Assembly: GCA_964419615.1 (NCBI GenBank)
Contig: CAYQPU010000002.1
Span: 9,778 to 73,777, forward strand
DNA from: an uncultured Methanosarcinales archaeon
Lineage (GTDB): Archaea > Nanobdellota > Nanobdellia > Woesearchaeales > JAGVZT01
DNA length: 64,000 bases
Reading direction: 5' to 3'
How positions within the stretch are numbered: the first letter of the stretch is position 1; the number at the start of each line of letters is the position of its first letter. The notes beneath the pieces were generated by a model. That model worked only from the letters and a program-made list of their open reading frames with translations. It searched no databases and had not been told where the DNA came from. The translations under genes and the position numbers were made by a program. Below are positions 5,670 through 41,078 of the stretch, in pieces.

Positions 5670-5670
5670 A

Positions 5671-6576
5671 ATGGAAGATACACAAACAATAATTCTTGTG
5701 ACTGGTGATTGCAACCAGAACTGTGTATTTTGTTCTGGAGAGCAAAGCGGTGCAGATAGAGAAGCTCAGAGTGATGAAGAGATTCTAAAACTCATTAAAA
5801 ATTAAAAGTGCACTCTTTCTATTGAGGGAGGAGAACCAACATTATCAAACAAACTTGCAGAATACACAGTAATTTCAAAAAAAGGAGGAACCAAAGACAT
5901 TATTCTTGTGACAAACGGTGTTAGATTATGTTATAAAGATTACTGCAAAAAATTACTCAAAGCAGGAGTCACTTTATTTAACATTAACTTCCCTCACAGT
6001 GATGAGAAAAAATGTGATGCTATAACACGAACAAAAGGTCATTATAAACTAAGAAAAAAAGGAATTAAGAACTTAATTGAACTCGGAGCAGGAGACAAAG
6101 TAAGGTTTAATTTTGTTATCAATAAAACAAATTTTGACAACATGGTTGATTATGTCAAGATGGTTAAAACCGAATTTCCTGAGATATTCTATATTGAGTT
6201 TAATTATGTCAAAGTATTAGGATATGTAAAAAAGAGAAAAGCACTTGTACCAACATTAACTCAGGTTCAACCATTCTTTAATAAAGCACTGGAATTCTGC
6301 AAGAAAAATGATGTAAGAATAATTGTAGATGGAATTCCTCTTTGCTTGATGCAAGGATATGAGCATCTAAACATTGACACACAATTCATCATAGATTCCA
6401 TACTTAACCCATTTATTGAAGAAAAAATCAAACCCAAGGTTTGTAATTCCTGTTCACTAAGTAAAATTTGTTCAGGAATGAGAAAAGATTATTATGAAAT
6501 ATTTGGAGCTGATGAACTTAAACCTTCTAGTACAAACCCCAAGCAAATTATAAAAATAATAAAATGCAAAGAATAG
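5671..6576 (+). pseudogene. Radical SAM paralog interrupted by an in-frame TAA
   Basis: MEDTQTIILVTGDCNQNCVFC (CxxxCxxC) from 5671. An in-frame TAA at 5803-5805 is followed in the same frame by KCTLSIEGGEPTLS (the GGEP motif). The ORF track lists only 5908..6576. The C-terminal CNSCSLSKICSGMRKDYYEIFGADELKP matches the paralog motif. Confidence 0.6.
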
Positions 6577-7481
6577 ACCTTCAATTAAACATGACCTGCA
6601 ATGAGAATTGTTTATTTTGCGCTTCAGCTGATGGCTCAAATTCATTTACAGACACTAAGAAATCAATTGAAATAATTCAGGATGCAATTGAATCTGGTGT
6701 GACAGATATCTGTTTTTCTGGTGGAGAACCCACCTTAAGAGACGATCTTCCAATATTAGTTAATTACATCAAAAAACAAAATCCACTGATTAAAGTTACT
6801 GTATTAACAAATGCTATGAGGCTTTGTTATGAATGGTACTCAAAAAAACTAGACAAAGTGGATTATTTTAACATCTCGGTTCATGGTTCAAATAGTAAAC
6901 CAAATGATGCACTAACCCGAACTCCAGGAAGTTTTGATAAAACAATATCTGGAGCAACAGTGATTCAAGAATTAGGTTATACTTTTGGATTTTATTTTGT
7001 TATAACTAAAACTAACTATAAGGAGATTGTCGAGTTTGCAGAGTTTGTAAAAAAGAATTTTCCAAAATGTAAGGCCATTACATTTTCTTTCCCATATTTA
7101 TCAGGGAACATGCTCAAACATTTATTCTTATTGCCAAAACTTTCAAAAATAAGTCCTTTGTTGGATGAATCTAAGAAACTATGTGAAGATGCAGGAATTG
7201 GATGGGAATTATCCAGTTGCGGTCTTATGCCATTATGTACTTTAAGTGTGCCAATCAGAGCAAAGGTAATAAAGAATAATGAGTCTTATAATGAAGAATC
7301 AATTCAAACAACATCACAAGAAGGAAATAAAGATTATGTGGTAACAAAACAAAACTATCAGAACCAACATTTTGTTAGGAGCTCTGCTTGTGAGAATTGC
7401 ACCCACAATTCTTTGTGTCCAGGTGTGTGGAAACAATATTCAGAAATCTATGGTACAGACGAGCTAAAGACTATTCACTAA
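6564..7481 (+). CDS. Radical SAM protein, MoaA/PqqE-like paralog
   Basis: CNENCLFC at the N-terminus, GGEPTLRDDL, TNAMRL, and the C-terminal CENCTHNSLCPGVWKQYSEIYGTDELK. Confidence 0.7.
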   Translation: MQRIDLQLNMTCNENCLFCASADGSNSFTDTKKSIEIIQDAIESGVTDICFSGGEPTLRDDLPILVNYIKKQNPLIKVTVLTNAMRLCYEWYSKKLDKVDYFNISVHGSNSKPNDALTRTPGSFDKTISGATVIQELGYTFGFYFVITKTNYKEIVEFAEFVKKNFPKCKAITFSFPYLSGNMLKHLFLLPKLSKISPLLDESKKLCEDAGIGWELSSCGLMPLCTLSVPIRAKVIKNNESYNEESIQTTSQEGNKDYVVTKQNYQNQHFVRSSACENCTHNSLCPGVWKQYSEIYGTDELKTIH

Positions 7482-7524
7482 ATGTTTTTTTGAAACCTGA
7501 AGCTTTAAACTTGGGTTAATTCTC

Positions 7525-9162
7525 TTATGCTTTGATAGAATGTTTATTTATCTCTTTATATGCAATCTCCCTGAATTCTACTGGATCACCTGTTCTTGGT
7601 GAAAGTTCTTTAAATGAATTAAGTATTTCTTTGTGTATTATATTTTCAGTGTTTTCTTTATTAAGTTGATTTATTTTCAGCATTGCAGATTCACCTGTAA
7701 AAACATAATCGATGCGAAACAATGCCTCTTCCTTGCCAACTACAACCTTAATCAGATTGTCTGAATAATATTTATTAATTGCTTCAATTATTTTTTCTTT
7801 TCCGATAAAAAACAGACCATAAAAGAACTTGTCTTTTCCTGTTTTTGGCAGATAATAAATCTGATCACCTTCTTCTCTTACTTGTCCCAGCTGCTTTAGC
7901 TTTTCAAGTGGCTCAGAAAAAACATCATTCAACTCTTTTTTGAAGTTTTGCTTAAAATTACTTTTTGAGATTTGGGATATGTTTACAATAATCTCAAAGA
8001 CAAACCTTTGCATTTCTTCAGCTTCTGAGAACTCAATCATGCTAAATTTACTTTTTATTGGATCTAAGGTGGGTGGGTTGCTAAAGTAACGAATTTTATT
8101 TTTAATATATGAACTAGCATGATGACCAAGTCCCAACACAGATCCTTTACAATCAACATTAAAGTGATACACATCTGGTATTTTCTGGGCAGAAGAAAGC
8201 AAAAAGAGCATTGAAGCGGCATTTCCTGCATCAAGTATTCTCTCATCTGGAGATTCATATCCCTTGCTTACAGCATACTTGATTATTTGGGGCATGCACT
8301 CTCTTAGTTCATTAAAATGCTTTTGAAATTCACCAAGACTTCCATTAAAATACTTTTTCAGATATGAGACTGTAGGCTGGCATTTGTAAAGCCTAACTGT
8401 TGTAGGCTGAAGATCAAGTAATCTCTTAAAACTTTTTGTAAAGGTCTTTTTTGTATCTTTGTATAGTCCAATTATCATATCTGTGTTATACTGTTCAAAG
8501 CCAAGCTCTCTGCAATTTGTAATGCATTTTGTGATCATATCTTCATTTTGATAATCTCTATTTATTGACTTAAGAACATTCAAATTTAGTGACTGTACTC
8601 CAAAACTAACCCTATTAAATCCAGCTTGTTTTAATATTTTCAATTTATTGAATGTTGTGCTCTGAGGATTTAATTCAAATGTTTTTTCACTGGTGTCTAA
8701 AAAACTTGCATATCTAAAGAATATTTCAAGTATCTCTGATAAGTCAGTATTATCAAAAAGACTTGGAGTCCCGCCTCCAAAATACAGATTATGGAACTTT
8801 CTTTTTTTTAGCACTTCTTTAAAAAGATGTATTTGATTAATCAGACATTCTGCATATTCCTTTACCTGTCTCTTGTTTTTAACAATTCCTTTATGATATA
8901 TGCAAAAATAGCACTTTGAATAACAATAAGGCACACCAATATAAACATTAATCTTATCAGTTTTATTATCAGACAGATAACTTAGCCATTTTTTCCTTAT
9001 ATAATCTCCATTAACTACCTTTGATTTTTTAAGCAGCTGCCTTTCAAATAAATCTGTTAAAAAGAAATTGTGGTGATAGCCATGTTTTTTTAATTGATCC
9101 ATGTAAAAAGAATACACAAACTTCTCAGCTTTGATCTCTTTGTTTATGTCTTTTAAGTCCAT
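7525..9162 (-). CDS. HemN/HemW-like radical SAM protein (coproporphyrinogen-III-oxidase family fold) with a C-terminal extension
   Basis: YIGVPYCYSKCYFCIYH matches the HemN-type Cx3Cx(F/Y)C signature. FGVQSLN matches the HemN-family GVQS motif. 545 aa. Confidence 0.65.
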   Translation of the reverse strand: MDLKDINKEIKAEKFVYSFYMDQLKKHGYHHNFFLTDLFERQLLKKSKVVNGDYIRKKWLSYLSDNKTDKINVYIGVPYCYSKCYFCIYHKGIVKNKRQVKEYAECLINQIHLFKEVLKKRKFHNLYFGGGTPSLFDNTDLSEILEIFFRYASFLDTSEKTFELNPQSTTFNKLKILKQAGFNRVSFGVQSLNLNVLKSINRDYQNEDMITKCITNCRELGFEQYNTDMIIGLYKDTKKTFTKSFKRLLDLQPTTVRLYKCQPTVSYLKKYFNGSLGEFQKHFNELRECMPQIIKYAVSKGYESPDERILDAGNAASMLFLLSSAQKIPDVYHFNVDCKGSVLGLGHHASSYIKNKIRYFSNPPTLDPIKSKFSMIEFSEAEEMQRFVFEIIVNISQISKSNFKQNFKKELNDVFSEPLEKLKQLGQVREEGDQIYYLPKTGKDKFFYGLFFIGKEKIIEAINKYYSDNLIKVVVGKEEALFRIDYVFTGESAMLKINQLNKENTENIIHKEILNSFKELSPRTGDPVEFREIAYKEINKHSIKA

Positions 9163-9296
9163 ATTACTAAAAAGAAGTTTAATGTATAAATAATTTATTA
9201 TAACGAGAATTTTTCAATTAAGAGAAATATGTATTAAAAAAACTTAACAATACATTTATTAACTATTATGCTATACTTTTGTCTTGTGAAACTTTA

Positions 9297-10193
9297 ATGA
9301 CAAATGTTATGGAAATTACCGTAGGATATAAGTGCAATTGTAATTGTAGGTTTTGTTCTGTTGGTCATATGAGAAAAGAATTAACTCTTAGTACAGACCA
9401 AATTAAAAATAAAATTTTGGAAGCAAAAGAAAAAAACATACCAAATATTGGTTTTGGTGGTGGTGAACCAACTATTAGAAAAGATCTTTTTGAGGTCGTA
9501 TCCTTTGCCAAAAAACAGGGATTTAAAGTTATCAGAATCCAAACTAATGGAGTAATGCTTGGTTATGATACTTTTGTTGATAAATTACTCAAAGCAGGAG
9601 CAACATTCTTTAAAATCTCAATCCATGGTCATAATGCAAAGATACATGACCATCTAACTCAATTACCAGGTAGTTTTAATATGGCAATTAAAGGAATAAA
9701 AAACCTTAAAAAAAGAGGTATGTCAGTTGAAATCAATATTGTAATTAACAAATTAAATTACAAGTACCTGCCTCAAATAACTGACTTTTTTATAAAAATG
9801 CAGATTTACAAGTTCTGCTTTATTTATCCTGTTTATGAAGGTAATCTGATTGATAATTTTGGTAAGATTGGCGTAAAGCTAGGTGAAATTTCTCCTTACT
9901 TGACAGATGCTCTGGATAGGGTTAAAGAGCTTGATCTTGACAAAGGAATTTGTCTAAATGTGCCTCCATGTATCCTAAGCCAAGATCCAGATATGCACTA
10001 TGGTTATGTTTACAAGTTTGATACAGTTGTATCAACACCACAAGGAACCAATGACATAGATAATTCAAATAAAGAGAATCTAGTTAAGCCAAAGCAGTGC
10101 AGAAGATGTGTTTTTAATAAAAACTGTATGGGTATATATAAGAGTTACACTAGGTTTTTTGGGATTGATGAGTTTAAACCAGTTCTTAAGTGA
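9297..10193 (+). CDS. Radical SAM protein, MoaA/PqqE-like paralog
   Basis: YKCNCNCRFC, GGGEPTIRKDL, IQTNGVML, and the C-terminal CRRCVFNKNCMGIYKSYTRFFGIDEFKPV. The track ORF starts at a TTG at 9279; the ATG at 9297 is preferred by analogy with the paralog N-termini. Confidence 0.7.
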   Translation: MTNVMEITVGYKCNCNCRFCSVGHMRKELTLSTDQIKNKILEAKEKNIPNIGFGGGEPTIRKDLFEVVSFAKKQGFKVIRIQTNGVMLGYDTFVDKLLKAGATFFKISIHGHNAKIHDHLTQLPGSFNMAIKGIKNLKKRGMSVEINIVINKLNYKYLPQITDFFIKMQIYKFCFIYPVYEGNLIDNFGKIGVKLGEISPYLTDALDRVKELDLDKGICLNVPPCILSQDPDMHYGYVYKFDTVVSTPQGTNDIDNSNKENLVKPKQCRRCVFNKNCMGIYKSYTRFFGIDEFKPVLK

Positions 10194-10199
10194 TTTGCA

Positions 10200-10880
10200 A
10201 ACAAATTAAGTTACTTAAAATGTCCTTGGGTCTAAACTTACAGCTTAGCTGTAAGTCCGGAACGTAGTGACAGGAGCCCCGCCCAATTTCACTTCGCTTT
10301 GCTACGTTCCTGGGTTGCTCTGGCAACCAATCTCACTCTGTTCGTTGCTTTTAGCATAGCTAAAAACTTCAGGGCGAGGACTTTTAATGCAGTCACTCCG
10401 CACATTCGTGCTATGTTCGGCATCCATAAGCTTTCGCTTCTGGAGTCTGAAAACATTCAGCTAAGCTGAATGTCAGGAACGTTAGTGAGATTATTTACAG
10501 CTCTGCTGTAAGTCCGGAATGTAGTGAAGCGAAATGAGATTATCTTTAGCTAAGCTAAAGATAACGAACGCTAGTGAATTTATCTGCGTGTTGAAGTGAG
10601 GAGCGTAAAAGCCCCCACCTCTCAGAAATTGTAAATTTCTGATGATGGTTGCTAGAGCAACCTGGGAACGGTAGTGAGCATGCTCAGAAACTTTTGGTTT
10701 CTGACATGTAGGAAAGCTCTGCTTTCCAGATGATCAGGACGAAAAGTCCTGACATTTAGGTGGGGGATGACTTGGAAAGCTAAGCTTTACAAGCCAGGAA
10801 TGAAGTGAAGCGAAATGAGATTGGCTCCGAACAGCAGATTTTCTTTACATAAGTAAAATGAGTAGAAAAATTTAAATACA
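10200..10880. other. GC-enriched non-coding block of ~11 hairpins; six have AGC-loop-GCU apices and five of those are each followed by a GGAAYG.AGTGA box (possible small-RNA array, origin-like or regulatory region)
   Basis: No ORF in any frame, and local GC is well above the surrounding ~30%. Hairpins: cttacagc-tta-gctgtaag, acattcagc-taa-gctgaatgt, ttacagc-tct-gctgtaa, ttatctttagc-taa-gctaaagataa, ggaaagc-tct-gctttcc, cttggaaagc-taa-gctttacaag. Others: ggttgc-tctg-gcaacc, ggttgc-taga-gcaacc, cagaaat-tgtaa-atttctg, cagaaac-ttttgg-tttctg, caggac-gaaaa-gtcctg. Boxes tccggaacgtagtga, caggaacgttagtga, tccggaatgtagtgaagcgaaatgagatt, cgaacgctagtga and ccaggaatgaagtgaagcgaaatgagatt are present, plus inverted copies ctacgttcctgg. 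Confidence 0.3.
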
Positions 10881-10961
10881 GAAAGACTCCCATTAATCTC
10901 TAAGCTACAAGATGGATTACTAATTAATCAGAAATCAGTAATGTAAAAAATTATAAAAAAA

Positions 10962-11468
10962 GTGTGTGTGAATGTGAAAAACAGATTATGGGTTATATTA
11001 TCAATCTTCAGTTTATTTATGCTTTTGAGTGGATGTAATACAAATGAAGGGGTTAATATGAAGGATTCATTAGACAAACAACAGAAAGTTAGAATTTCGG
11101 ATGTTAGAGACTTAAACGCATATTATGAACCACCAGACGGATTTAGGTTCATTTTTGGCTTAGTTGTTGAAGATCAGGAAGTAGCAAGAAATGGTTTGTT
11201 GAATGTGACCATATCATCAAAAAAAGGTAAGTTGCTGTTAGAGAAATCAATTAACGTAAAATCCAAGGAATTCGGGAAATACACTGTTAATTCAAATAGT
11301 GTGGATAAGGAAATTTTAAGTTATTCTGGTAAGATTCCAATTAGTGAATTCAATGAATCTGAAGTTCCTGAGGGATTGTTTTGTTTAGGTTTTAAGGACT
11401 CAGAAGGAAATCAATTTAATCAAATCTGTTCAAATGTGAAAGGGCTTCCACCTTTCCATAATGATTGA
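10962..11468 (+). CDS. Putative secreted lipoprotein
   Basis: N-terminal signal with a lipobox-like LLSGC (MCVNVKNRLWVILSIFSLFMLLSGCNT). 168 aa; no other recognisable domain. Confidence 0.35.
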   Translation: MCVNVKNRLWVILSIFSLFMLLSGCNTNEGVNMKDSLDKQQKVRISDVRDLNAYYEPPDGFRFIFGLVVEDQEVARNGLLNVTISSKKGKLLLEKSINVKSKEFGKYTVNSNSVDKEILSYSGKIPISEFNESEVPEGLFCLGFKDSEGNQFNQICSNVKGLPPFHND

Positions 11469-11511
11469 CTTATAAGCAAAGCTTAAATACACATTTCTTA
11501 ACTCATTTTAC

Positions 11512-12624
11512 ATGGAATTGATCATTGATATTTTGTCTATAATCTGTGTAATCATTTTAGGGATTATCACAAGCTATGAAGATATTAAAGAGAATAAAAT
11601 AAGAAACAAATGGGTGGGACCTGCAATTCTAATTGCTTTGGTTTTATTCATCGCAAGAATTGCGAGTGTGAAAATCCTTGGACAAGGCCTCGTCTCTGGA
11701 TATATCTGGGAATATCTGTCCAATTTTGTATTGTCTTTTGGAGTAGGTTTTGTTATATGGGAATTAAAACTTTGGAATGCGGCTGATTCAAAGTTAATGC
11801 TTGCCTATGCTGCATTGATCCCTTTCACATTTTATTACTGGGGTTATACAGACAAGTTCCCCAGTTTCACCCTTTTTACCAATACATTTATACCTTACTT
11901 GTTGATTGGTACAACCTACCTAATTATAAAAACAGATAAGAAAACAATATGGGATGTAATTAAACAAAAAGTAATTAGAACACTGCCAAGTTCACTTTCT
12001 ATGATTATAGGTTTCTTATGGATTACTAATAAGTTTACTAGCTTGCTTAATTTTAGTGGGACAGAGAGATTTAATATTGTTATTGTCATAGCTATGATGA
12101 TTATATCTGAAAGATATTTAAAAGTGAAAGTTACCTATCTGGGAATCGGGCTCAGTTTACTAGCAGTAATTCTTGACTTTAACATGTTTGACCTAAAGTT
12201 TTTTCTTAAGATGTTAAAGACCATTTTCTTTTATATTATGTTAAGGTTTTTTATTGTAAGCTTAGGATTCAAATTCTTTACAAAAAGAGTCAGAGTTGCA
12301 GATCTTGAGCCAGGGATGGTTCTTGCAGACAAAATAATAGAGAGTGAAGGCAAGTATAGAGTACAGGAAAGGATTCAGATCAGTATTTCACAAGCTGTTT
12401 TAGAAAAAGTTAAAGCAGATGATGTAATTAAGCCAAATCCTGAGGGACTAAGCAAAGAAGAAATTGAAAAAATCAAAAATTTGCGCAAATCAAAAAAACT
12501 AGACATTTATTCAGTGAATATTGCAAAGATTTATCCTTTTGCTCCGTTTTTGTTTTTAGGAGTAATTCTAACCCTTATTTGTAAAGGAAGTGTACTCACA
12601 AGAATCTATATGTTGTTAACATAA
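11512..12624 (+). CDS. A24-family prepilin/preflagellin peptidase-like polytopic membrane protein with a C-terminal soluble extension
   Basis: N-terminal TM then SYEDIKENKIRNKWVG (first catalytic Asp motif of the PibD/FlaK type). Second motif NAADSKLMLAYAAL (GxxD-KL-like). About 8 TM segments. Confidence 0.45.
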   Translation: MELIIDILSIICVIILGIITSYEDIKENKIRNKWVGPAILIALVLFIARIASVKILGQGLVSGYIWEYLSNFVLSFGVGFVIWELKLWNAADSKLMLAYAALIPFTFYYWGYTDKFPSFTLFTNTFIPYLLIGTTYLIIKTDKKTIWDVIKQKVIRTLPSSLSMIIGFLWITNKFTSLLNFSGTERFNIVIVIAMMIISERYLKVKVTYLGIGLSLLAVILDFNMFDLKFFLKMLKTIFFYIMLRFFIVSLGFKFFTKRVRVADLEPGMVLADKIIESEGKYRVQERIQISISQAVLEKVKADDVIKPNPEGLSKEEIEKIKNLRKSKKLDIYSVNIAKIYPFAPFLFLGVILTLICKGSVLTRIYMLLT

Positions 12625-12679
12625 TTAAACATAAGATATAAAAAGTCAACAGAAAAGTTTAAATAACTACCAACATATC

Positions 12680-13135
12680 TTGAAAATTGGTGAGAGGATG
12701 GATGTAATAAAAACTATTGACAATATCTCAATATATAAAGATAATGTAGTACTTAGTGTGAATGAAAAAATATATCCTCTGGATATAATCTATTCTGCTT
12801 CCTATGTGTTTATGGATCGGGCATATGTTGTGATGGGTGGAGGTGGAGATGATTCAGAGGTTTTGGTGACTCTGAGGCCCAAAAAGAAAGAAAATCTAGA
12901 AGAACTTGGTAGGGATTTTAATAATGAGCTTATTAATTATGCTGTTTACAAAGAACAAAGTGTCAAGAGTAGAGGGATTAAAGAAACAATTGTTCGAAAA
13001 GCACTTGAATCTAATGTCCCAAGTTCAGGCGAATGTTCTGATGATGAATTGGGTGAGGACTCTGATGAGAGCTATAAAGATGATCCTTTAGGCATAGCTG
13101 TTCCATGGGAAGAAAAGGAAGGGAAGAATGAATAA
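12680..13135 (+). CDS. Small acidic protein, paralog of the next gene; candidate HxsD-like accessory protein
   Basis: 151 aa. It shares ...Y..D..YV.....G...VLVTL+PK.K..L+ELG.+F.N.LI... with 13128..13373. ELINYAVYKE loosely resembles the LLNDYxLRE signature I recall for the His-Xaa-Ser system protein HxsD. It lies immediately upstream of the SPASM maturase. Confidence 0.3.
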   Translation: MKIGERMDVIKTIDNISIYKDNVVLSVNEKIYPLDIIYSASYVFMDRAYVVMGGGGDDSEVLVTLRPKKKENLEELGRDFNNELINYAVYKEQSVKSRGIKETIVRKALESNVPSSGECSDDELGEDSDESYKDDPLGIAVPWEEKEGKNE

Positions 13136-13373
13136 TATCACAGTAAAAAAAGGGGTTGTTCGAATATTGGTTGATACCCGGTACTATGGTTTTGGAGCAG
13201 TACTCACAGCTGCAAAGGCATACCTGGATTCCTGTTGGGTCTTTGTTGATGGGGATCTTGAAGATCAGGTTTTGGTTACATTAAAACCTAAAGACAAGAA
13301 AATTGATGTAGATTTGTTAGGATTCGAGTTTTTTAATTTTATGCTGGGGACAATTCAAAATGCCTACACCTAG
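13128..13373 (+). CDS. Small protein, paralog of 12680..13135; candidate HxsD-like
   Basis: 81 aa. VLVTLKPKDKKIDVDLLGFEFFNFMLG aligns with VLVTLRPKKKENLEELGRDFNNELINY of the preceding gene. It overlaps its neighbours by 8 and 14 nt (operonic). Confidence 0.3.
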   Translation: MNNITVKKGVVRILVDTRYYGFGAVLTAAKAYLDSCWVFVDGDLEDQVLVTLKPKDKKIDVDLLGFEFFNFMLGTIQNAYT

Positions 13374-14784
13374 GGCTTTTGATTTTATTGGTAGAACTAA
13401 GAAAATTGGTTCCAAGTATTTTGTTGCAAATATAGATGGTTCTTTTACTATGTTAACTGAAGAGGAGTATAGGAATCTTCTTTTAAAGAATCTTGACAAA
13501 GAGCTTTTTTTGGATTTAGAATCCAAGGGAGTTATTATCACGAGTAAGAATATTGATGTTATTGCTGGGCATTTTAGAAGAAGAAGGCAGGTTGTTTATC
13601 AGGGACCAAATTTACATATAGTCATACCAACTTTGAGGTGCAACCAGGTTTGTCTTTATTGTCATGCAGCCTCAAGAAGAATGGATGCCAAAGATTGTGA
13701 TATGGATAAGGAAACTGCAAAAAAAACTGTAGAATTTATTTTCCAGACTCCCTCCAGACCAATAACAATAGAATTCCAGGGGGGCGAGCCGCTTGTTAAG
13801 TTTGACATTATTAAATATATGCATAAATATGCAAACGAACTAAACAAGAAATATGAAAAAGACATTAGGTTTTCTATTGTTTCAAACCTAACATTGATGG
13901 ATGATAAAAAATTGGATTTTATAACAAAGAACATTATTGGGCTTTGTACAAGCCTGGACGGTCCAAAATACGTGCATGATAAGAACAGAAAGATGATTGG
14001 CGGATCTGGGAGCTATAACCTTGTTACAAATTGGATTCGAACATTTAATCAAGGATACAAGGAAGGCTATGCAAAACTTAATGCACTTGCAACCATCACC
14101 AGGCATTCTTTACCTTACCCAAAAGAAATCATTGATGAATATAAAGATTTAGGTTTGCGCGGAGTTTGGCTTAGGTGGGTGGACCCATTTGGATTTGCTG
14201 GATTTGCGTGGGACAAGATCAGCTATAGTGCTGAAGAATTTCTTGAGTTTTGGAAAAAGGGAGTAGATTATGTGTATGATGAATTAAAGGGATTTAAAGA
14301 GCTATCTTCTCTAATTTTGCTTCGAAAGATTTTTGCAAGATATGAACCCGCTTTTTTGGACATACTTAACCCGTGTGGTGCTGGCATTGGCCAGATGGCA
14401 TATATGCACGATGGCAGTATCTACAGCTGTGATGAGGGCAGAATGTATGGGGGAGACTTCTTTAAATTAGGGAATGTTAACCAATCATTTAGTAAAGTTA
14501 TGAGCTCTCCTAAAATGTGCAGCCTTATTGCGAGTTCTGTTAGTGAAAGCTATTTTTGTGATCATTGTGTATATCAACCTTATTGCGGGGTGTGTCCAGT
14601 CTGGAATTTTGCAGACACTGGCACTGTTGTTCCAAAATTGTCAATGGATCTTAGATGTAAAATATTAACCGGTCAGTTTGACTATTTGATTAATAAATAC
14701 TTCACTAATAAAAAATTCCAAAAAACAGTGGATAAGTTAATCAAATTGGGTGATTCTCAGATAGAAAAGAATCTGTGTATTTAA
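13360..14784 (+). CDS. Radical SAM/SPASM-domain maturase (anSME-like; HxsB/HxsC-like) with a ~95-aa N-terminal extension
   Basis: CNQVCLYCHAAS (CxxxCxxC), FQGGEPLV, and a C-terminal SPASM-type Cys array (CGAGIGQMAYMHDGSIYSCDEG ... CDHCVYQPYCGVCPVWNF). An N-terminal domain precedes the core and could serve as a leader-peptide recognition element. Confidence 0.75.
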   Translation: MPTPRAFDFIGRTKKIGSKYFVANIDGSFTMLTEEEYRNLLLKNLDKELFLDLESKGVIITSKNIDVIAGHFRRRRQVVYQGPNLHIVIPTLRCNQVCLYCHAASRRMDAKDCDMDKETAKKTVEFIFQTPSRPITIEFQGGEPLVKFDIIKYMHKYANELNKKYEKDIRFSIVSNLTLMDDKKLDFITKNIIGLCTSLDGPKYVHDKNRKMIGGSGSYNLVTNWIRTFNQGYKEGYAKLNALATITRHSLPYPKEIIDEYKDLGLRGVWLRWVDPFGFAGFAWDKISYSAEEFLEFWKKGVDYVYDELKGFKELSSLILLRKIFARYEPAFLDILNPCGAGIGQMAYMHDGSIYSCDEGRMYGGDFFKLGNVNQSFSKVMSSPKMCSLIASSVSESYFCDHCVYQPYCGVCPVWNFADTGTVVPKLSMDLRCKILTGQFDYLINKYFTNKKFQKTVDKLIKLGDSQIEKNLCI

Positions 14785-14795
14785 TTTTGCAAAAA

Positions 14796-14804
14796 TTTAT
14801 ATAT
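14796..14804 (+). promoter_or_regulatory. Candidate TATA box (tttatatat) for the precursor gene, with the SD-like ggaaggtga at 14829-14837
   Basis: An AT-rich TATA-like octamer ~40 nt upstream of the ATG at 14841. A purine-rich ribosome-binding site is correctly spaced. Confidence 0.25.
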
Positions 14805-14840
14805 CAATAGAATTCAGATATATTAAAAAGGAAGGTGAGT

Positions 14841-15272
14841 ATGGGAAATAAAATTTTGCCAAGAGTTAAAAAATCCCTCCGAGGTTATCTTATGGGGGAG
14901 GATGGTAAGATTAGTAAGCAATCCATGCTTGTTATTGGAACTTTTTTAGGCGCTGCAGCGCTCTCCACAATCACTATAAGTAAAAGCGTTAGTGCCCAAC
15001 ATGTGTCTCATGGTTCACATTGTTCTCATAGCAGCCACAGTGCCCATAGCAGCCATAGTTCACATAGCAACCACGGAAGTCACAGCAGTCACGGTTCTCA
15101 CGGAAGTCACGGTTCTCATGGATCCCATGGATCCCATGGTAGTCATGGTTCCCATAGTAATCATGGTAGTCATGGAAGCCATGGTTCCCATGGTTCCCAT
15201 GGTTCCCATAGTAATCATGGTAGTCATGGATCTCATTGGAATGGATGCTGGCCGGGAGCTAACGTCATATAG
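14841..15272 (+). CDS. His-Xaa-Ser repeat precursor-like protein (HxsA-like): leader with a hydrophobic segment plus ~30 tandem H-G-S/H-S-S/H-x-S triplets
   Basis: MGNKILPRVKKSLRGYLMGEDGKISKQSMLVIGTFLGAAALSTITISKSVSAQ, then HVSHGSHCSHSSHSAHSSHSSHSNHGSHSSH(GSH)n...HSNHGSHGSHWNGCWPGANVI. The ATG at 14841 with its SD is preferred over the track's GTG at 14835. It sits between two SPASM radical-SAM genes. Confidence 0.6.
   Translation: MGNKILPRVKKSLRGYLMGEDGKISKQSMLVIGTFLGAAALSTITISKSVSAQHVSHGSHCSHSSHSAHSSHSSHSNHGSHSSHGSHGSHGSHGSHGSHGSHGSHSNHGSHGSHGSHGSHGSHSNHGSHGSHWNGCWPGANVI
14995..15235 (+). repeat. Tandem 9-bp coding repeat (tcc cat gga / agt cat ggt variants) encoding the (HGS)n array
   Basis: Direct reading shows tcacggaagtcacggttctcatggatcccatggatcccatggtagtcatggttcccat... 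with near-perfect periodicity of 9 nt. Confidence 0.8.
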
Positions 15273-15300
15273 ATTGTAAAACCATTATTTTTGTATTGAA

Positions 15301-17238
15301 ATGCAAATCAGATTATTTAACATTAAAAAGAAGAAGTTTGAATATATTAATGAAAGAGATATCTCTAATCATCTAAGTGAGTTAGATAAGCTAATTCATA
15401 TTGTAAGCAACCATAGAAATAGATATTATTACTTACCAAAAAAAACCGCAATAATTGAAATCCCAAAAAGTATCTCTTGTTACCAGTCTCATCCTTCAGA
15501 CACAGAATCAGATCTGTTCAAAATTGTTGATAAGGATATAAAAAGAGACCGAGAAAAGCCTCTTTTTAAAGATCTAATTATAAATATGCACTCAAAATGT
15601 AATTTGGATTGTAAGTATTGTTTTGGATTTTCAAAAGATAAAGAGTTAGAGACACCCACTGAAACAATAGTGGCTCTCATTAGCTATCTCTATAAAAAAA
15701 GATATTCTCTGAATAGAATCTATTTCTTGGGATCTGGTGAAACACTACTTGAGTTTAATAGATTTAAAGATATAGTTTCGATACTTAAACAGTATTATCC
15801 AAATGTTCCAATAATAGTTGTTACAAATGGTATTTTATCAAAGCAAAAAATAGACTGGTTGATTAAAAGAAAGATAAATATAAGGTTGAGTTGTGATGGT
15901 CCAGCTTTTATAAATGATGTTTCTAGACCCATAAAAAATAGCACAAAAAAACCATCAGAGACAGTTCATGCTAACCTCCAATACATAGTAAAGAATACAT
16001 CTTTATTTACAATAGCACCAACTATTACAAAATTATCTCAGGGATTTGAATCAAACATACTATACTTTTTTTGGAAATTAGGTGTGAAACTTGATAAGAT
16101 CAGCTGGAACCATGCATCATGCAGAGGAAAAGCAAAGGAACAGCCTACTATCTTAATGAATTATGATGAAATTAACAGATCACAAATTGTGTGGGATGAG
16201 TTGGAAGATATACTTGGAGATTACACTAAAACAAATATGTTTGTTAATATGATGGGAACACCTTTTCTTTGTGGAACCATTAATTTTGGCTGGATCACAA
16301 TTGATGAAAGAGGATGTATTAGTAGCTGTTCAAAGCATGTAAATTCTCTGAATAATTCCTTAATTGAAAAACTTTTAATTGGAAGATATGATTTTGAATC
16401 CAAAAAAATCCTTATTTCAAGTAACTCAATTAAGAATACAAATAATTGGATTATATCTGTAATGGAAAAGACAGATTGTTTTAATTGTGAATATCTTTCA
16501 CTTTGTCGGGGCCCATGCTTCTATGATTCACTTGTGATTGAAGACAATATTGGTGAAGATAACAAAACAAATATCCAGTGTATTAAAAGGAAAAATTATG
16601 TTAATAATATCCTACAATATTTGATTGAGACTCATATGTGGAAGAAATATCCACACCACTTAGTAGAGAATGGAATAGAATACTTTAACTATTCTCATAA
16701 TAAGTTTGAGATTAGAGATCCCAATGACCTCCCAAATAAGTTTCAAAGTGCGATCAAGATTAAGATAGACGTTGAAAATAATTTAGGCAAACAAATAGAT
16801 CACTTAATTAATTTAAGTAATTCTGAAAATTATTGTTTTAGATTTTTTTTACTTGAATTTAAAATAAACTTAACCAATCCGGAACAAATAGCTAAGAAAA
16901 TAAACCACTTTCTTGGAAAATTACAGCAAAATTTTGTGTGTTTCCTTGTATTAAAGCCTCTCCCTTATTGTGTTAGGAGATATATTAAAAAAACTTTTTC
17001 AATACCAAACACTTGTCTTGAATGCAACAAAATGTTTACCGTAAAAGACAACAAAGTAATATTTTGTGATGGATCAGATGGGAAGAAATTTGATAAATAT
17101 GTAGACAGGACGCAGATTTTCAATGACTTTAAGAAAATTAATAAGAACACTAATAATCTCTGCCTAAATTGCATTTACAAGGATAGAAAATTATGTTTTG
17201 GTTATGTTGAAAATATTAATTGTATTGCGAACAATTAA
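15301..17238 (+). CDS. Large radical SAM/SPASM-domain protein (second maturase of the pair; HxsC/HxsB-like) with N- and C-terminal extensions
   Basis: ~100-aa N-terminal domain, then CNLDCKYCFGFS, GSGETLLEF and VVTNG. A SPASM-like CFNCEYLSLCRGPCFYD is followed by a Cys-rich tail (CLECNKMF..FCDGSD..CLNCIYKDRKLCFGY). 645 aa. Confidence 0.65.
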   Translation: MQIRLFNIKKKKFEYINERDISNHLSELDKLIHIVSNHRNRYYYLPKKTAIIEIPKSISCYQSHPSDTESDLFKIVDKDIKRDREKPLFKDLIINMHSKCNLDCKYCFGFSKDKELETPTETIVALISYLYKKRYSLNRIYFLGSGETLLEFNRFKDIVSILKQYYPNVPIIVVTNGILSKQKIDWLIKRKINIRLSCDGPAFINDVSRPIKNSTKKPSETVHANLQYIVKNTSLFTIAPTITKLSQGFESNILYFFWKLGVKLDKISWNHASCRGKAKEQPTILMNYDEINRSQIVWDELEDILGDYTKTNMFVNMMGTPFLCGTINFGWITIDERGCISSCSKHVNSLNNSLIEKLLIGRYDFESKKILISSNSIKNTNNWIISVMEKTDCFNCEYLSLCRGPCFYDSLVIEDNIGEDNKTNIQCIKRKNYVNNILQYLIETHMWKKYPHHLVENGIEYFNYSHNKFEIRDPNDLPNKFQSAIKIKIDVENNLGKQIDHLINLSNSENYCFRFFLLEFKINLTNPEQIAKKINHFLGKLQQNFVCFLVLKPLPYCVRRYIKKTFSIPNTCLECNKMFTVKDNKVIFCDGSDGKKFDKYVDRTQIFNDFKKINKNTNNLCLNCIYKDRKLCFGYVENINCIANN

Positions 17239-17653
17239 CATAAGTTACATATAAACCTAAAACATCATTCTCCTTAGTGTCTATCATATAAGAACCCTTG
17301 TCTGTAGTAATTATTGCTATTTCCTTCTCGTGTATGATTTTATTCAATTGGAGTGCAATGGGTTCTGAAGTATCATTAATTCCTAAAGTTTTATTGTTAA
17401 TTGATATAATTGTTTCACCAACCGAGATAGAAGTATTACCAAATTTACTATAAGTGCTAATGTTGACTATTGTTAACCCACAAACAGGATTATTTGAATA
17501 TGCTTCTTTACTTAAGTTTACCCATAACAAAGTTTCATTCATAGAATCATTAACACTAGAAGAATTGGAAAATACTTGGAAAAATAAGTAAAATACAGCA
17601 ACCACTATTATAAACCACACAATTTTCTTTTTTGAATATTTATCTTTTATCAA
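17216..17653 (-). CDS. Small membrane-anchored extracytoplasmic protein (hypothetical)
   Basis: N-terminal TM (KKIVWFIIVVAVFYLFFQVF), then a Ser/Asn-rich region with several N-x-S/T sequons. No domain recognised. Confidence 0.3.
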   Translation of the reverse strand: MIKDKYSKKKIVWFIIVVAVFYLFFQVFSNSSSVNDSMNETLLWVNLSKEAYSNNPVCGLTIVNISTYSKFGNTSISVGETIISINNKTLGINDTSEPIALQLNKIIHEKEIAIITTDKGSYMIDTKENDVLGLYVTYVNCSQYN

Positions 17654-17887
17654 GATGAATTAATAACCTCTTTGTTATATTTTTAAAACTTTCTATTTTT
17701 ATATCCTATTCAAAAGTAGTTTCCAAATATAAAAAGATTTTTGAAACCAGTTTAGTTAATAACATAAATTAAACAGTTTGTGCATAAGATCTTAATCTTA
17801 TTTAACTGCTTAGCTTGGATTTTCAGAAAAAACTTTATTGATTATCCAAAGAAAAGATTTAAATAACATTATTGAGACTTTCTAAAC

Positions 17888-40824: not shown

Positions 40825-40848
40825 CTTTTTCCTCCTTATCAAAATAAT

Positions 40849-41009: not shown

Positions 41010-41078
41010 ATATATCAAGCAAAATATTACATCATTTAAAAAGATTTTTATATTCTAATCTCTAAGGTTCAAATTACC

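What the first reader, a model, noticed from the sequence alone, without database searches (positions are those of the whole stretch)
10200..10880. GC-enriched 0.7-kb non-coding block of ~11 hairpins; six have AGC-loop-GCU apices and five of those are followed by a conserved GGAAYG.AGTGA box
In a ~30% GC genome this ORF-free block is conspicuously GC-rich and highly structured. Six hairpins have stems that all close on AGC-(UAA/UCU/UUA)-GCU. Five more hairpins are present. Five copies of the (t)cMGGAAYGNAGTGA box occur, two of them extended to GTGAAGCGAAATGAGATT, plus inverted box copies. This is not CRISPR (the units are non-identical with no regular spacers), nor rRNA, tRNA or RNase P as far as I can tell. 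It sits between the 9297 radical-SAM gene and the Hxs-like operon. It could be an array of small RNAs, a protein-binding regulatory region, an origin-like element, or a large structured RNA.
Basis: seen in the sequence. Interest (0 to 1): 0.6.

Follow-up and report, generated by a model that had tools for sequence, protein, structure and literature searches.

The report
Non-coding mobile hairpin-repeat insertion
The GC-rich hairpin block is most likely a 634-base gene-less mobile DNA insertion, assembled from repeated "hairpin plus box" modules that also litter another Woesearchaeota genome, and not a new structured RNA gene or replication origin.

Summary
Window 10215-10848 is ORF-free and the most GC-rich stretch of the 64-kb window (44% against 33%). 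It holds about 15 hairpins, seven of them with AGC-N3-GCU apices, and seven short GGAAYG-N1-2-AGTGA boxes, six on the + strand and one on the - strand. No Rfam family, tRNA or CRISPR fits.

The host is a DPANN (Woesearchaeota-like) archaeon. The closest relatives have the same flanking genes but only a 0-97 nt spacer between them, so the block is an insertion.

A distant Woesearchaeota MAG (SuakinDeep_MAG79_5, about 60% amino-acid identity in the one shared ortholog) has two further copies. They share the termini (TTARAATG..TTGGGTCTAAA ... GCAGATTTTCTTTAC). One of them, the complete copy, also shares a core that is 93% identical over 72 nt. Both lie in unrelated gene contexts. One copy has a matching empty site. 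All three insertions follow TTAC, and both copies with a visible right end finish in TTTAC.

The interiors differ by gain, loss and inversion of hairpin modules. The same modules build other multi-copy repeats that end many contigs of that MAG. Module stems covary, and their wobble pairs lie on the box strand.

Best reading: a non-autonomous, modular transposable repeat. It looks like an IS200/IS605-derived PATE in its end architecture and like pneumococcal BOX elements in its modularity. No transposase partner was found. Interest is modest: a new member of a known kind.

The parts
10211..10214 (+). TTAC immediately 5' of the element (target or TAM-like tetranucleotide)
   Evidence: All three copies of the backbone element are preceded by TTAC: window AAGTTAC|TTAAAATG, L130 CTTTTAC|TTAGAATG, L048rc ATATTAC|TTAGAATG.
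10215..10848 (+). Whole non-coding insertion (634 nt), called the 'backbone element' in this report
   Evidence: The boundaries come from two sources. One is the conserved termini shared with L130:1983-2322 and L048rc. The other is the filled (L130) versus empty (L072) site comparison. The block is absent from the syntenic spacer of relatives L001 and L002. It has the highest GC of the window.
10215..10236 (+). Conserved left terminus TTAAAATGTCCTTGGGTCTAAA
   Evidence: The same 22 nt (TTAGAATGCGTTGGGTCTAAA) start the L130 and L048rc copies, whereas what follows differs in each.
10236..10274 (+). Module 1: hairpin ACTTACAGC-TTA-GCTGTAAGT plus CC plus GGAACGTAGTGA
   Evidence: CM hit 50.0 bits; box.
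10283..10328 (-). Inverted module: hairpin GGTTGC-CAGA-GCAACC plus CA plus long box GGAACGTAGCAAAGCGAAGTGA
   Evidence: (I1-I3, D8); weak CM hit at 10295-10328 on the - strand.
10329..10367 (-). Inverted module: hairpin GTTTTTAGC-TAT-GCTAAAAGC plus AA plus CGAACAGAGTGA
   Evidence: CM hit 47.6 bits on the - strand.
10382..10453 (-). 72-nt 'core', 93% identical to SuakinDeep L130:2122-2192. On the - strand it is itself a module-like unit (TCCAGAAGC-GAAA-GCTTATGGA ... CGAATGTGCGGAGTGA with an inserted GCAC-GAAT-GTGC hairpin).
   Evidence: blastn; module parsing. There is one compensatory G-C to A-U change in the small hairpin between window and L130. The core appears to be missing from the L048rc copy.
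10453..10492 (+). Module 2: ACATTCAGC-TAA-GCTGAATGT plus CA plus GGAACGTTAGTGA
   Evidence: CM hit 55.2 bits.
10493..10541 (+). Module 3: ATTTACAGC-TCT-GCTGTAAGT plus CC plus GGAATGTAGTGAAGCGAAATGAGATT (extended box)
   Evidence: CM hit 48.5 bits; repeat families D2 and D5.
10542..10581 (+). Module 4: ATCTTTAGC-TAA-GCTAAAGAT plus AA plus CGAACGCTAGTGA
   Evidence: CM hit 47.2 bits.
10582..10848 (+). Right-end domain. Nested helices: Pa 10582-10587/10834-10839 (ATCTGC/GCAGAT), Pb 10600-10604/10824-10828 (GGAGC/GCTCC), Pc 10612-10619/10759-10766 (CCCCCACC/GGTGGGGG). It is followed by TTTCTTTAC, and the element ends at 10848.
   Evidence: The same nested design is seen in L130:2238-2322 (Pb GAAGAGT/ACTCTTC; Pc CCCCCGCC/GGCG..GGG). 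It is also seen in stand-alone ~95-nt 'type C' copies in L072 and L130 (Pb GTGAGGAGC/GCTCCTCAC; Pc CCCCATAAT/ATTATGGGG). The window copy carries about 140 nt of extra modules at the Pc apex and one module between Pc and Pb.
10623..10760 (+). Second module type: CAG...CTG hairpins at 10623-10641, 10685-10703 and 10735-10751, flanked by (C)ATGAT and ACATKTAGG. The span also holds an AGC-apex hairpin at 10711-10727.
   Evidence: Repeat families D6, D7 and D10. [quoted passage not shown]
10647..10681 (+). Module 5: GGTTGC-TAGA-GCAACC plus TG plus GGAACGGTAGTGA
   Evidence: (D8, D4); weak CM hit.
10772..10823 (+). Module 6: CTTGGAAAGC-TAA-GCTTTACAAG (conserved G.A mismatch) plus CCA plus GGAATGAAGTGAAGCGAAATGAGATTG
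   Evidence: CM hit 39.5 bits. The same hairpin class with the same G.A mismatch recurs in SuakinDeep copies.
9279..10193 (+). Upstream flank: HxsC4-like radical SAM gene (not part of the element)
10962..11468 (+). Downstream flank: lipoprotein-like ORF, homologous to the gene that directly follows the radical SAM gene in relative L001

Best explanation
Window 10215-10848 is a non-autonomous, protein-free transposable repeat. It inserted between an HxsC-like radical SAM gene and a lipoprotein gene of a DPANN (Woesearchaeota-like) archaeon.

**What is shown**
1. It is a lineage-specific insertion.
2. Copies with the same 22-nt left terminus sit in unrelated loci of a distant genome, and one of them also shows the same right terminus. 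That copy has a matching empty site.
3. Every copy follows TTAC, and both visible right ends finish in TTTAC.
4. The interior is a mosaic of small modules. The main module is a 7-11 bp hairpin with an AGC-N3-GCT apex followed by GGAAYG-N1-2-AGTGA. A second hairpin type also occurs. Modules are gained, lost, inverted and tandemly multiplied between copies, and they also build other high-copy repeats in that genome.
5. Module stems covary, and their wobble pairs lie on the box strand. The modules are therefore selected to fold as single strands.

**What is inferred**
- The element is moved in trans by a transposase that recognises folded single-stranded ends, most likely of the IS200/IS605 (Y1/HUH) type. 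This would make it a PATE-like element.
  - The left hairpin starts about 22 nt from the end.
  - The foot of the right nested hairpin lies 9 nt from the end.
  - There are no convincing terminal inverted repeats.
  - TTAC acts as target (TAM) and TTTAC as the element-encoded end motif (TEM).
- The number of internal modules changes by recombination or slippage, as with boxB modules of pneumococcal BOX elements.
- The GC enrichment simply reflects stable hairpins in an AT-rich genome.
- Any effect on the host is a by-product, for example a hairpin plus U-tract acting as a terminator after the radical SAM gene.
For: **Insertion.** Relatives with 76% and 63% identical radical SAM genes keep the flanking genes but have a 97-nt or 2-nt spacer. 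Removing 10215-10848 leaves about 134 nt.

**Same element elsewhere.**
- L130:1983-2322 has the same left and right termini and a 72-nt core at 93% identity. It lies next to a DEAD-box helicase.
- A third copy sits at a contig end of L048.
- The two genomes share only about 60% amino-acid identity in the one shared ortholog.

**Filled versus empty site.**
- Filled, L130: ...CTCCTCACTTTTAC[338 nt]ATGCAGATTTTCTGACTGAAAA.
- Empty, L072: ...CTCCTCACTTTTAC|ATGCAGATTTTCTGACTGAAAA.
- The flanks are about 96% identical.

**TTAC.** It precedes 3 of 3 copies, and both visible right ends finish in TTTAC.

**Dispersed family.**
- 12 of the 120 stretches returned by the genome scan come from one MAG, many at contig ends.
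- One roughly 280-nt repeat occurs in at least 10 loci at 95-100% identity.
- Neighbouring genes are housekeeping genes.

**Modularity.** Type B copies hold between 2 and 5 modules (one inverted module plus 1-4 in tandem) in different orders. Modules are inverted between backbone copies.

**Stem covariation.** 6 of 9 pairs have changes on both sides, and 0 of 500 shuffles reach the observed score. All 8 wobble cells are G.U on the box strand.

**Nothing else fits.** There are no ORFs and no Rfam family.

**Literature.**
- PATEs lack terminal inverted repeats and target duplications. They have near-terminal palindromes that sit further from the 5' end than from the 3' end, and they use a 4-6 bp target (PMC3119063).
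- In IS605 elements the TAM and TEM differ only slightly, and PATE-like elements occur (PMC10055086).
- GC-rich HgcC 'ncRNAs' of AT-rich archaea carry IS200/IS605 right-end hairpins (PMC4615843).
Against: - No Y1 (IS200) transposase or TnpB gene was found in the 64-kb window or next to the SuakinDeep copies. The only transposase-like ORF is a partial DDE_Tnp_1 at 41079-41741, whose flanks show no similarity to the element's termini.
- The first hairpin after the left terminus differs in all three copies, and the left and right hairpins are not alike. In IS608 and ISDra2 they resemble each other.
- Because TTAC occurs at both junctions, a 4-5 bp target-site duplication made by a DDE-type transposase cannot be excluded. 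The ends show a weak 7 of 11 inverted match.
- Only three copies of the backbone are known, and only two genomes plus one haloarchaeon carry the modules.
- High conservation across distant genomes could also mean functional constraint.
Confidence: 0.7

Rival explanations
1. The block is a gene for one large (about 620 nt) structured non-coding RNA, or for an array of small RNAs. The conserved core would have a cellular function and the hairpin-box modules would be protein-binding motifs, for example a protein sponge or RNP scaffold.
For: - GC enrichment in an AT-rich archaeal genome is the classic signature of structured RNA.
- Folding energies are extreme.
- Stems covary and wobble pairs fall on one strand.
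- The 72-nt core is 93% identical between genomes with about 60% protein identity.
- The element ends in a U-rich tract that could terminate archaeal transcription.
Against: - It is absent from the syntenic locus of the closest relatives.
- Copies lie in unrelated contexts, and one lies inside another repeat with a matching empty site.
- Module number, order and orientation differ between copies, and the core appears to be missing in one.
- Modules occur on both strands of the same element.
- The long-range pairings are simply inverted copies of the same module.
- There is no Rfam match.
Confidence: 0.08
2. The hairpin-plus-box modules are archaeal counterparts of REP/BIME or REPIN sequences. 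They would be short palindromes with a conserved flanking motif, spread and maintained by a domesticated single-copy Y1 (RAYT-like) enzyme. The block would be a cluster of them rather than one transposon.
For: - The units are strand-specific hairpins with a conserved flanking box and a conserved G.A mismatch class.
- Units occur in both orientations and in clusters, in intergenic regions next to 3' ends of housekeeping genes.
- The hairpin plus GGAACGRAGTGA motif recurs in a haloarchaeal repeat.
Against: - The whole 634-nt (or 338-nt) unit has conserved termini and behaves as one insertion.
- In the 64-kb window the modules occur at a single locus only. A genome-wide REP family would be expected in many intergenic regions.
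- No RAYT gene has been seen.
- The haloarchaeal match may be partly chance. About 0.4 chance hits with a stem of at least 4 extra bp were expected among the roughly 105 chance matches.
Confidence: 0.12
3. The block is a DNA-level functional site. Candidates are a replication origin with iteron or ORB-like repeats, or a cluster of binding sites for a regulator of the neighbouring His-Xaa-Ser/radical SAM genes.
For: The repeated palindromic units lie in an intergenic region beside an operon. A local change of GC skew occurs near 9200.
Against: - Relatives with the same gene cluster lack it.
- Origins are AT-rich and lie next to orc1/cdc6, and none is near.
- The skew change coincides with a change of gene orientation.
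- The same modules occur next to unrelated genes in another genome.
- Wobble asymmetry points to single-strand folding, not duplex binding.
Confidence: 0.03

Closest known systems
PATEs (palindrome-associated transposable elements), the protein-free derivatives of IS200/IS605 (IS1341-type) transposons in archaea (Dyall-Smith et al. 2011, PMC3119063; Meers et al. 2023, PMC10055086)
   Same: - Too short, and too free of ORFs, to encode a transposase.
- No convincing terminal inverted repeats.
- Hairpins near both ends, further from the 5' end (about 22 nt) than from the 3' end (9 nt).
- Insertion next to a fixed 4-5 nt motif (TTAC, the target of IS608 according to the literature as I recall it).
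- A similar motif at the element's own 3' end (TAM/TEM logic).
- Insertion into other repeats.
- Heterogeneous interiors with conserved termini.
   Different: - No cognate tnpA or tnpB element with matching ends was found.
- The left and right hairpins are unlike each other.
- The first left hairpin varies between copies.
- The interior is filled with tandem and inverted hairpin-box modules not described for PATEs.
- Published Haloquadratum PATE palindromes do not contain the box.
HgcC (RF00062) and sotRNA or PATE-derived RNAs of archaea (Gomes-Filho et al. 2015, PMC4615843)
   Same: These are GC-rich, hairpin-rich 'non-coding RNA' signals in AT-rich archaeal genomes that turned out to carry IS200/IS605 right-end hairpins. 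Some are transcribed.
   Different: No Rfam hit to HgcC even at E <= 10. The hallmark 8-bp stem with a UUCA tetraloop is not present. Apices here are AGC-N3-GCU triloops.
BOX elements of Streptococcus pneumoniae (boxA - boxB(n) - boxC) (Croucher et al. 2011, PMC3049150)
   Same: - Composite, modular intergenic repeats of 67-637 bp.
- Fixed end modules enclose a variable number of tandem internal modules that fold independently.
- They cluster with, and insert into, other repeats.
- They may act as transcript stabilisers or terminators.
   Different: BOX elements are bacterial, have terminal inverted repeats and make target duplications. Their module sequences are unrelated to these. Here modules also occur inverted.
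REP/BIME and REPIN sequences with RAYT (Y1) enzymes of bacteria
   Same: Short imperfect palindromes with a conserved flanking motif, strand-specific, found singly, in inverted pairs and in clusters. They are thought to derive from IS200/IS605 ends.
   Different: REPs are genome-wide and number in the hundreds. In this window the modules are confined to one discrete element with its own termini. No RAYT is known here, and the flanking motif is 12 nt and lies 3' of the hairpin rather than being a 5' GTAG.
Classical MITEs (terminal inverted repeats plus target-site duplication, DDE transposase in trans)
   Same: Small, non-coding, structured and multi-copy. They cause assembly breaks. TTAC at both junctions could be a 4-bp duplication.
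   Different: The terminal inverted repeats are at best 7 of 11. The same tetranucleotide at three independent sites implies strict target specificity. The only DDE fragment in the window (41079-41741) has no similar ends.

Membership tests
PATE / IS200-IS605-derived non-autonomous element | No transposase-coding capacity | tested here: met
   Longest ORF in 10194-10961 is 56 aa, and none has family hits.
PATE / IS200-IS605-derived non-autonomous element | No terminal inverted repeats | tested here: inconclusive
   The left end matches the reverse complement of the right end at 7 of 11 positions in the window and 5 of 11 in L130 (read). This is weak but not zero.
PATE / IS200-IS605-derived non-autonomous element | Sub-terminal palindromes at both ends, further from the 5' end than from the 3' end | tested here: met
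   The first hairpin starts 22 nt from the left end. The foot of the right nested hairpin (GCAGAT, 10834-10839) is 9 nt from the right end. L130 has the same layout.
PATE / IS200-IS605-derived non-autonomous element | Insertion 3' of a fixed 4-6 nt target without target duplication (TAM), with a related motif ending the element (TEM) | tested here: inconclusive
   3 of 3 copies follow TTAC, and both visible right ends finish in TTTAC. There is one filled/empty pair. The same data fit a TTAC target duplication.
PATE / IS200-IS605-derived non-autonomous element | Ends match those of a tnpA- or tnpB-bearing IS in the same or a related genome | tested here: not met
   No Y1_Tnp or TnpB domain in the ORFs of at least 120 aa scanned against Pfam (a few that overlap larger genes were skipped). 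None in the ten neighbours of SuakinDeep copies that were tested. Whole genomes could not be searched.
PATE / IS200-IS605-derived non-autonomous element | Left and right hairpins similar to each other and conserved among copies | tested here: not met
   The left hairpins differ in the window, L130 and L048rc, and none resembles the right nested hairpin.
MITE (DDE-mobilised) | Clear terminal inverted repeats related to a resident transposon, plus target-site duplication | tested here: inconclusive
   Only weak inverted repeats. TTAC at both junctions could be a duplication. The DDE fragment at 41079-41741 has no matching ends.
BOX-like modular repeat | Fixed terminal modules enclosing a variable number of tandem internal modules | tested here: met
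   SuakinDeep type B copies share end stems (AAAAAGTGG..GCAGAGGC / GCCTCTGC..CCACTTTTT). Each holds one inverted module plus 1-4 tandem modules, 2 to 5 in all. Backbone copies of 338 and 634 nt differ by modules. This shows resemblance in design only, and the sequences are unrelated.
REP/BIME-RAYT | Hundreds of dispersed copies per genome and a RAYT gene flanked by REPs | not testable with these tools
   Only 64 kb of the source genome and about 72 kb of the SuakinDeep MAG are in hand. In the window the modules occur at one locus only.
Any Rfam RNA family (including HgcC, RNase P, SRP, C/D sRNAs, large ornate RNAs) | Covariance-model score at or above the gathering threshold | tested here: not met
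   No hits at gathering threshold in the window or in the SuakinDeep loci. In 9900-11200 at E <= 10 there are only sub-threshold chance hits.
CRISPR array | Near-identical direct repeats separated by unique spacers of similar length | tested here: not met
   Units are 63-91% identical, lie on both strands, and abut one another without spacers.
Archaeal replication origin | AT-rich unwinding region with ORB repeats next to orc1/cdc6, conserved in relatives | tested here: not met
   The block is the most GC-rich segment of the window. No orc1/cdc6 lies nearby. It is absent in syntenic relatives.
TnpB omega-RNA (right-end-derived guide RNA) | Transcript with a structured scaffold ending at the right-end boundary and reading about 16-20 nt into flanking DNA, with a TnpB partner | not testable with these tools
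   A nested right-end hairpin ending 9 nt before the boundary exists. No RNA data and no TnpB gene are available.

The most novel reading that the evidence does not exclude
The hairpin plus GGAAYG-N-AGTGA module would be the recognition unit of an undescribed archaeal single-strand DNA (HUH/Y1, RAYT-like) mobilisation system. The system would be shared between DPANN Woesearchaeota and haloarchaea of hypersaline habitats, possibly exchanged between symbiont and host. The conserved nested right-end domain would be transcribed as an orphan omega-RNA-like guide that recruits a TnpB-type nuclease in trans to the empty TTAC site.
Probability: 0.18. Interest if true: 0.55.

Novelty: new member of a known kind. 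Interest (0 to 1): 0.3.

Why it matters
**It removes a false lead.** A conspicuous GC-rich, hairpin-dense, Rfam-negative block in an AT-rich DPANN genome looks like a new large RNA, but it behaves as mobile repetitive DNA. Archaeal HgcC 'RNAs' taught the same lesson.

**It defines a repeat family.** The family has termini, modules and a TTAC target. It fragments DPANN MAG assemblies. It can be masked or used as a marker, and it shows that even very small symbiont genomes carry active non-autonomous elements.

**If the modules prove to be substrates of a single-strand transposase or TnpB-type system**, they would be a handle on mobile-element biology in DPANN archaea. They would also bear on possible exchange with haloarchaeal hosts.

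Tried and rejected
- **Rfam and tRNA scans.** Rfam at gathering and permissive thresholds gave nothing real, and ARAGORN found no tRNA. The best Rfam hit was a histone 3' stem-loop at 27 bits, below threshold, matching one GGTTGC hairpin.
- **C/D-box or K-turn readings** of UGAUGA/CUGA strings in 10640-10756. The spacing and the hairpins do not fit, and only sub-threshold snoRNA hits appear.
- **Small ORFs or RiPP precursors.** Only stop-rich frames are present.
- **Metagenome scan with the core 18-mer.** It returned 15 hits, all chance. L140, L141 and L149 share 21 nt but are an unrelated bacterial repeat region.
- **Viral-contig scans** with the module, left-end and right-end patterns. All hits were chance, and the L155 hit lies in a coding region.
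- **Searching the protein database with a spurious ORF across the element** to find other copies. There were no candidates.
- **blastn against phage and plasmid collections.** No match.
- **Haloquadratum PATE supplementary tables.** The box is not there.
- **Literature string search.** GCGAAGTGAG sits directly 5' of the ISDra2 right-end hairpin. I fetched ISDra2-group right ends from Deinococcus, Clostridium and Nostoc plasmids. Only the hairpin and the GGTTCA that follows it are conserved there, not GCGAAGTGAG. I therefore treat this resemblance as probably coincidental and do not use it as evidence.
- **The DDE transposase fragment at 41079-41741 as possible mobiliser.** Its flanks share nothing with the element's ends.
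- **Long-range helices from the MFE fold as evidence for a global RNA fold.** These are inverted copies of the same modules, and they are not conserved in L130.
Full report
**1. The observation**

The interval between the stop of the radical SAM gene (10193) and the start of the next ORF (10962) holds no ORF above 56 aa.

- **GC content.** The 634 nt from 10215 to 10848 have 44.3% GC against 33.2% for the window. This is essentially the most GC-rich interval of that length in the 64 kb (profile).
- **Folding.** Both strands fold far better than dinucleotide shuffles: -254.7 kcal/mol and z = -9.7 for the + strand, z = -17.4 for the - strand.
- **Hairpins.** Six perfect hairpins have AGC-N3-GCT apices (apex motifs at 10242, 10353, 10459, 10499, 10548, 10715), and one has a G.A mismatch (10772-10794). 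Only two weak look-alikes occur in the rest of the window.
- **Boxes.** The box [CG]GAAY[AG]-N1-2-AGTGA occurs six times on the + strand and once on the - strand. It occurs nowhere else in the window.
- **Extended box.** GTGAAGCGAAATGAGATT is present twice, identical.
- **Not an artefact.** Three independent metagenome assemblies carry the identical sequence.

There are about 15 hairpins, not 11.

**2. What it is not**

- Rfam 15 gives no hit at gathering thresholds in the window. Only sub-threshold chance hits appear in 9900-11200 at E <= 10.
- ARAGORN finds no tRNA.
- The units are 63-91% alike, lie on both strands, and abut one another without spacers, so this is not a CRISPR array.

**3. 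Host and locus**

The flanking genes are:

| Position | Gene |
|---|---|
| 9279-10193 | HxsC4-like radical SAM enzyme |
| 10962-11468 | lipoprotein-like ORF |
| 11512-12624 | archaeal A24 peptidase |
| 12680-13135 | HxsD |
| 13360-14784 | HxsB |
| 14835-15272 | HxsA4 |

The closest homologues of the radical SAM enzyme are from Woesearchaeota/Nanoarchaeota MAGs.

- In the closest relative (76% identity, L001) the same three genes are syntenic. The lipoprotein homologue starts 97 nt after the radical SAM stop.
- In the next relative (63%, L002-L005) the gap is 2 nt.
- At 52% identity (L006-L008) the downstream gene is a different one and starts 1 nt after the stop.

The block is therefore an insertion in this lineage. 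Without it, 134 nt of spacer would remain.

**4. Related sequence elsewhere**

I scanned one genome per species with the module pattern AGCTNNGCT-N8-10-GRAAYG-N1-2-AGTGA.

- Twelve came from a single MAG, Candidatus Woesearchaeota SuakinDeep_MAG79_5, many of them at contig ends.
- In that MAG, 13 of 15 pattern matches extend the hairpin by five further base pairs. Of the 116 matches elsewhere, 112 extend it by none or one.

Reading these loci and running blastn shows three things.

*(a) Two more copies of the window element, which I call the backbone element.*
- L130:1983-2322 is a 338-nt homologue. It has the same left terminus (TTAGAATGCGTTGGGTCTAAA against TTAAAATGTCCTTGGGTCTAAA) and the same right terminus (CACAGCAGATTTTCTTTAC). 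It also has a 72-nt core at 93% identity.
- It has fewer and different modules, and it lies next to a DEAD-box helicase gene.
- A further, truncated copy with the same left terminus lies at the end of contig L048.

*(b) A filled and an empty site.*
- The L130 copy sits inside another small repeat ('type C').
- A second copy of that repeat, in L072, is uninterrupted.
  - Filled: ...CTCCTCACTTTTAC[338 nt]ATGCAGATTTTCTGACTGAAAA.
  - Empty: ...CTCCTCACTTTTAC|ATGCAGATTTTCTGACTGAAAA.
- The flanks are about 96% identical.

*(c) TTAC at the junctions.*
- All three copies are preceded by TTAC. Both copies with a visible right end finish in TTTAC.
- The two genomes share only about 60% amino-acid identity in the one orthologue available. 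Conservation of non-coding DNA at 80-93% therefore means mobility or transfer, or else strong constraint.

**5. A mosaic of modules**

- *Inverted units.* The window's 10730-10759 unit (GATGAT-CAGGAC...GTCCTG-ACATTTAGG) is 97% identical to L130:1999-2028. [quoted passage not shown] In L048rc the corresponding left part is again rearranged, and the core appears to be missing.
- *The right-end domain.* In both full copies it is a nested hairpin:
  - Pa: ATCTGC/GCAGAT.
  - Pb: GGAGC/GCTCC in the window, GAAGAGT/ACTCTTC in L130.
  - Pc: CCCCCACC/GGTGGGGG in the window, CCCCCGCC/GGCG..GGG in L130.
  - The window copy carries about 140 nt of extra hairpins at the Pc apex and a whole hairpin-box module between Pc and Pb.
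  - The ~95-nt type C repeat is a stand-alone version of this domain.
- *Type B repeats.* A second, high-copy SuakinDeep repeat ('type B') has fixed outer stems. Between them it holds one inverted module plus 1-4 tandem hairpin-box modules, 2 to 5 in all, in varying order. A roughly 280-nt version recurs in at least 10 loci at 95-100% identity.
- *Neighbours.* The genes next to these repeats are ordinary housekeeping genes.
- *Absence from the window.* Type B is absent from the window. The hairpin-box covariance model finds full modules in the window only inside the block. It finds none in the relatives L001, L002 and L006.

**6. The modules fold as single strands**

I aligned twelve distinct modules.
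- The three apex pairs are invariant.
- The six outer pairs all show changes on both sides.
- 90% of cells are paired. The remainder are two rows mis-registered by the aligner.
- No shuffle out of 500 reaches the observed covariation.
- All eight wobble cells are G.U on the box-bearing strand, which would be A.C mismatches on the other strand.
- One hairpin class keeps a G.A mismatch at the same position in the window, in the core and in the SuakinDeep copies.

Hairpin formation on one strand is thus selected. That fits either RNA or the single-stranded DNA intermediates of HUH/Y1 transposition. It does not fit a duplex binding site.

**7. Mechanism**

*Shown:* a discrete, protein-free, multi-locus insertion with conserved termini, a TTAC junction and a modular, recombining interior.

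*Inferred:* mobilisation in trans by a transposase that recognises folded ends. The architecture is that of IS200/IS605-derived PATEs:
- no convincing terminal inverted repeats;
- near-terminal palindromes further from the 5' end (22 nt) than from the 3' end (9 nt);
- a fixed 4-5 nt target;
- frequent insertion into other repeats (PMC3119063);
- in IS605 elements, an adjacent motif (TAM) and an element-encoded terminal motif (TEM) that differ only slightly, and PATE-like derivatives that exist and often carry guide RNAs (PMC10055086).

A precedent exists for GC-rich 'ncRNA' signals in AT-rich archaea being such right-end hairpins, namely HgcC (PMC4615843). The variable number of tandem modules parallels the boxB modules of pneumococcal BOX elements (PMC3049150).

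*Weaknesses:*
- No Y1 transposase or TnpB gene was found in the window. None was found beside the SuakinDeep copies.
- The left hairpins differ between copies and do not resemble the right one.
- TTAC at both junctions could equally be a target duplication.

I put 0.7 on 'non-autonomous mobile modular repeat' and roughly half of that on the IS200/IS605-type mechanism.

**8. Rivals**

- *A large functional RNA.* This is disfavoured by absence from syntenic relatives, by differing contexts, by the filled/empty pair, by module inversion and loss, and by modules on both strands.
- *A REP/BIME-like cluster maintained by a RAYT.* This is compatible with the module properties. It does not explain the conserved termini, or the single locus in 64 kb.
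- *An origin or regulatory site.* This is contradicted by the GC richness, by the absence from relatives that carry the same operon, and by the wobble asymmetry.

**9. A possible wider distribution**

Two loci of a haloarchaeon (HArc-gm2; L022, L136) carry a roughly 550-nt GC-rich repeat.
- It has inverted termini, CGAAAGCCCTCG at the left end and CGAGGGCTTTCGG at the right.
- It contains CCTCAGC-TCC-GCTGAGG-GCACC-GGAACGRAGTGAGG and a second GCGAAGTGAGG motif.
- It scores 42-45 bits with the module model.

This may mean the module is shared between DPANN and haloarchaea of brines. However, the pattern scan itself selected for the motif, and about 0.4 such stems were expected by chance. I treat it as a lead only.

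**10. Verdict**

The finding is real and well described, but it is most likely mobile repetitive DNA of a known general kind. The family, and the hairpin-box module in particular, appear to be undescribed. The mobilising enzyme and any RNA product remain open.

Noticed in passing
window 40845-41010 (- strand): This looks like a tRNA-Gln(CUG) gene. It has an acceptor stem GCCCCA/UGGGGC, an anticodon loop UUCUGGG, and a roughly 100-nt non-canonical intron in the T-loop (GGCAG-UUCGAAA...[intron]...CUGCC). Both ARAGORN (0 tRNAs in 64 kb) and Rfam missed it.
   Followed up: partly
window 41079-41741 (+): A 220-aa ORF combines an N-terminal DUF4190 membrane segment with a partial DDE_Tnp_1 (IS4/IS5-type) transposase domain, right next to the putative tRNA. 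It is the only transposase-like gene in the window, and its flanks share nothing with the hairpin element's ends.
   Followed up: partly
window 3020-21149: An unusually dense cluster of at least nine radical SAM genes (3020, 5908, 6564, 7525, 9279, 13360, 15301, 17888, 20226). It surrounds a His-Xaa-Ser system (HxsD 12680, HxsB 13360, collagen-like HxsA4 14835) with an archaeal A24 prepilin-type peptidase at 11512. The ORF at 5908-6576 looks like a truncated HxsC-type enzyme that continues into 6564-7481.
   Followed up: partly
L020, L023, L048, L054, L063, L070, L075, L093, L102, L130, L131 (SuakinDeep_MAG79_5, JAANXH01): A roughly 280-450 nt non-coding repeat is present at 95-100% identity in at least 10 loci. 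It combines type B with an extension containing GGAAATCAAAGATTTCC and CAGAAAAACAACGTTTTTCAG hairpins. It often lies at contig ends, so it is probably what fragments this MAG's assembly. Its two ends are hairpin plus T5 in both directions, and several copies face the 3' ends of genes, like bidirectional terminators.
   Followed up: partly
L075:7270-7400 versus L130:1-170: The inner part of a type B repeat (CCCYACATCATGTCACTAACGTTCC...) has the same orientation in both copies, while the outer stems, with their asymmetric GTCAAA bulge, are flipped. This suggests inversion of, or insertion in either orientation into, a palindromic shell.
   Followed up: no
L022:7430-7925 and L136:4290-4860 (Halobacteria archaeon HArc-gm2): A GC-rich 500-580 nt MITE-like repeat whose ends are inverted copies of each other (CGAAAGCCCTCG at the left, CGAGGGCTTTCGG at the right). 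It has long internal inverted repeats (CGCCCTTTCAGTCC.CCAGGGAC / GGAGGACTGAAAGGGCG) and a 55-nt indel between the two copies. It contains the same hairpin plus GGAACGRAGTGA motif as the Woesearchaeota modules.
   Followed up: partly
L140:3390-3480, L141 (rc 320-480), L149:440-600: An unrelated metagenome contig family has 60-62-nt tandem repeats (ATAGTCAAATGACTACGGGCTTTTTCA...GGTTGGGAAACGAACC). By chance it shares a 21-nt string with the window core. It also has short GGATTCT/GGATACTCGAT microsatellite-like runs.
   Followed up: no
L185-L187 and hits H4-H23: The ISDra2-type right-end hairpin with its 3' tail (GAAYCACGCGACTTTAGTCGTGTGAGGTTCA) is 90-100% conserved across plasmids of Deinococcus, Clostridium, Nostoc, Ruminococcus and Lactobacillus. 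The Clostridium botulinum copies have no annotated gene under the match and look PATE-like.
   Followed up: no
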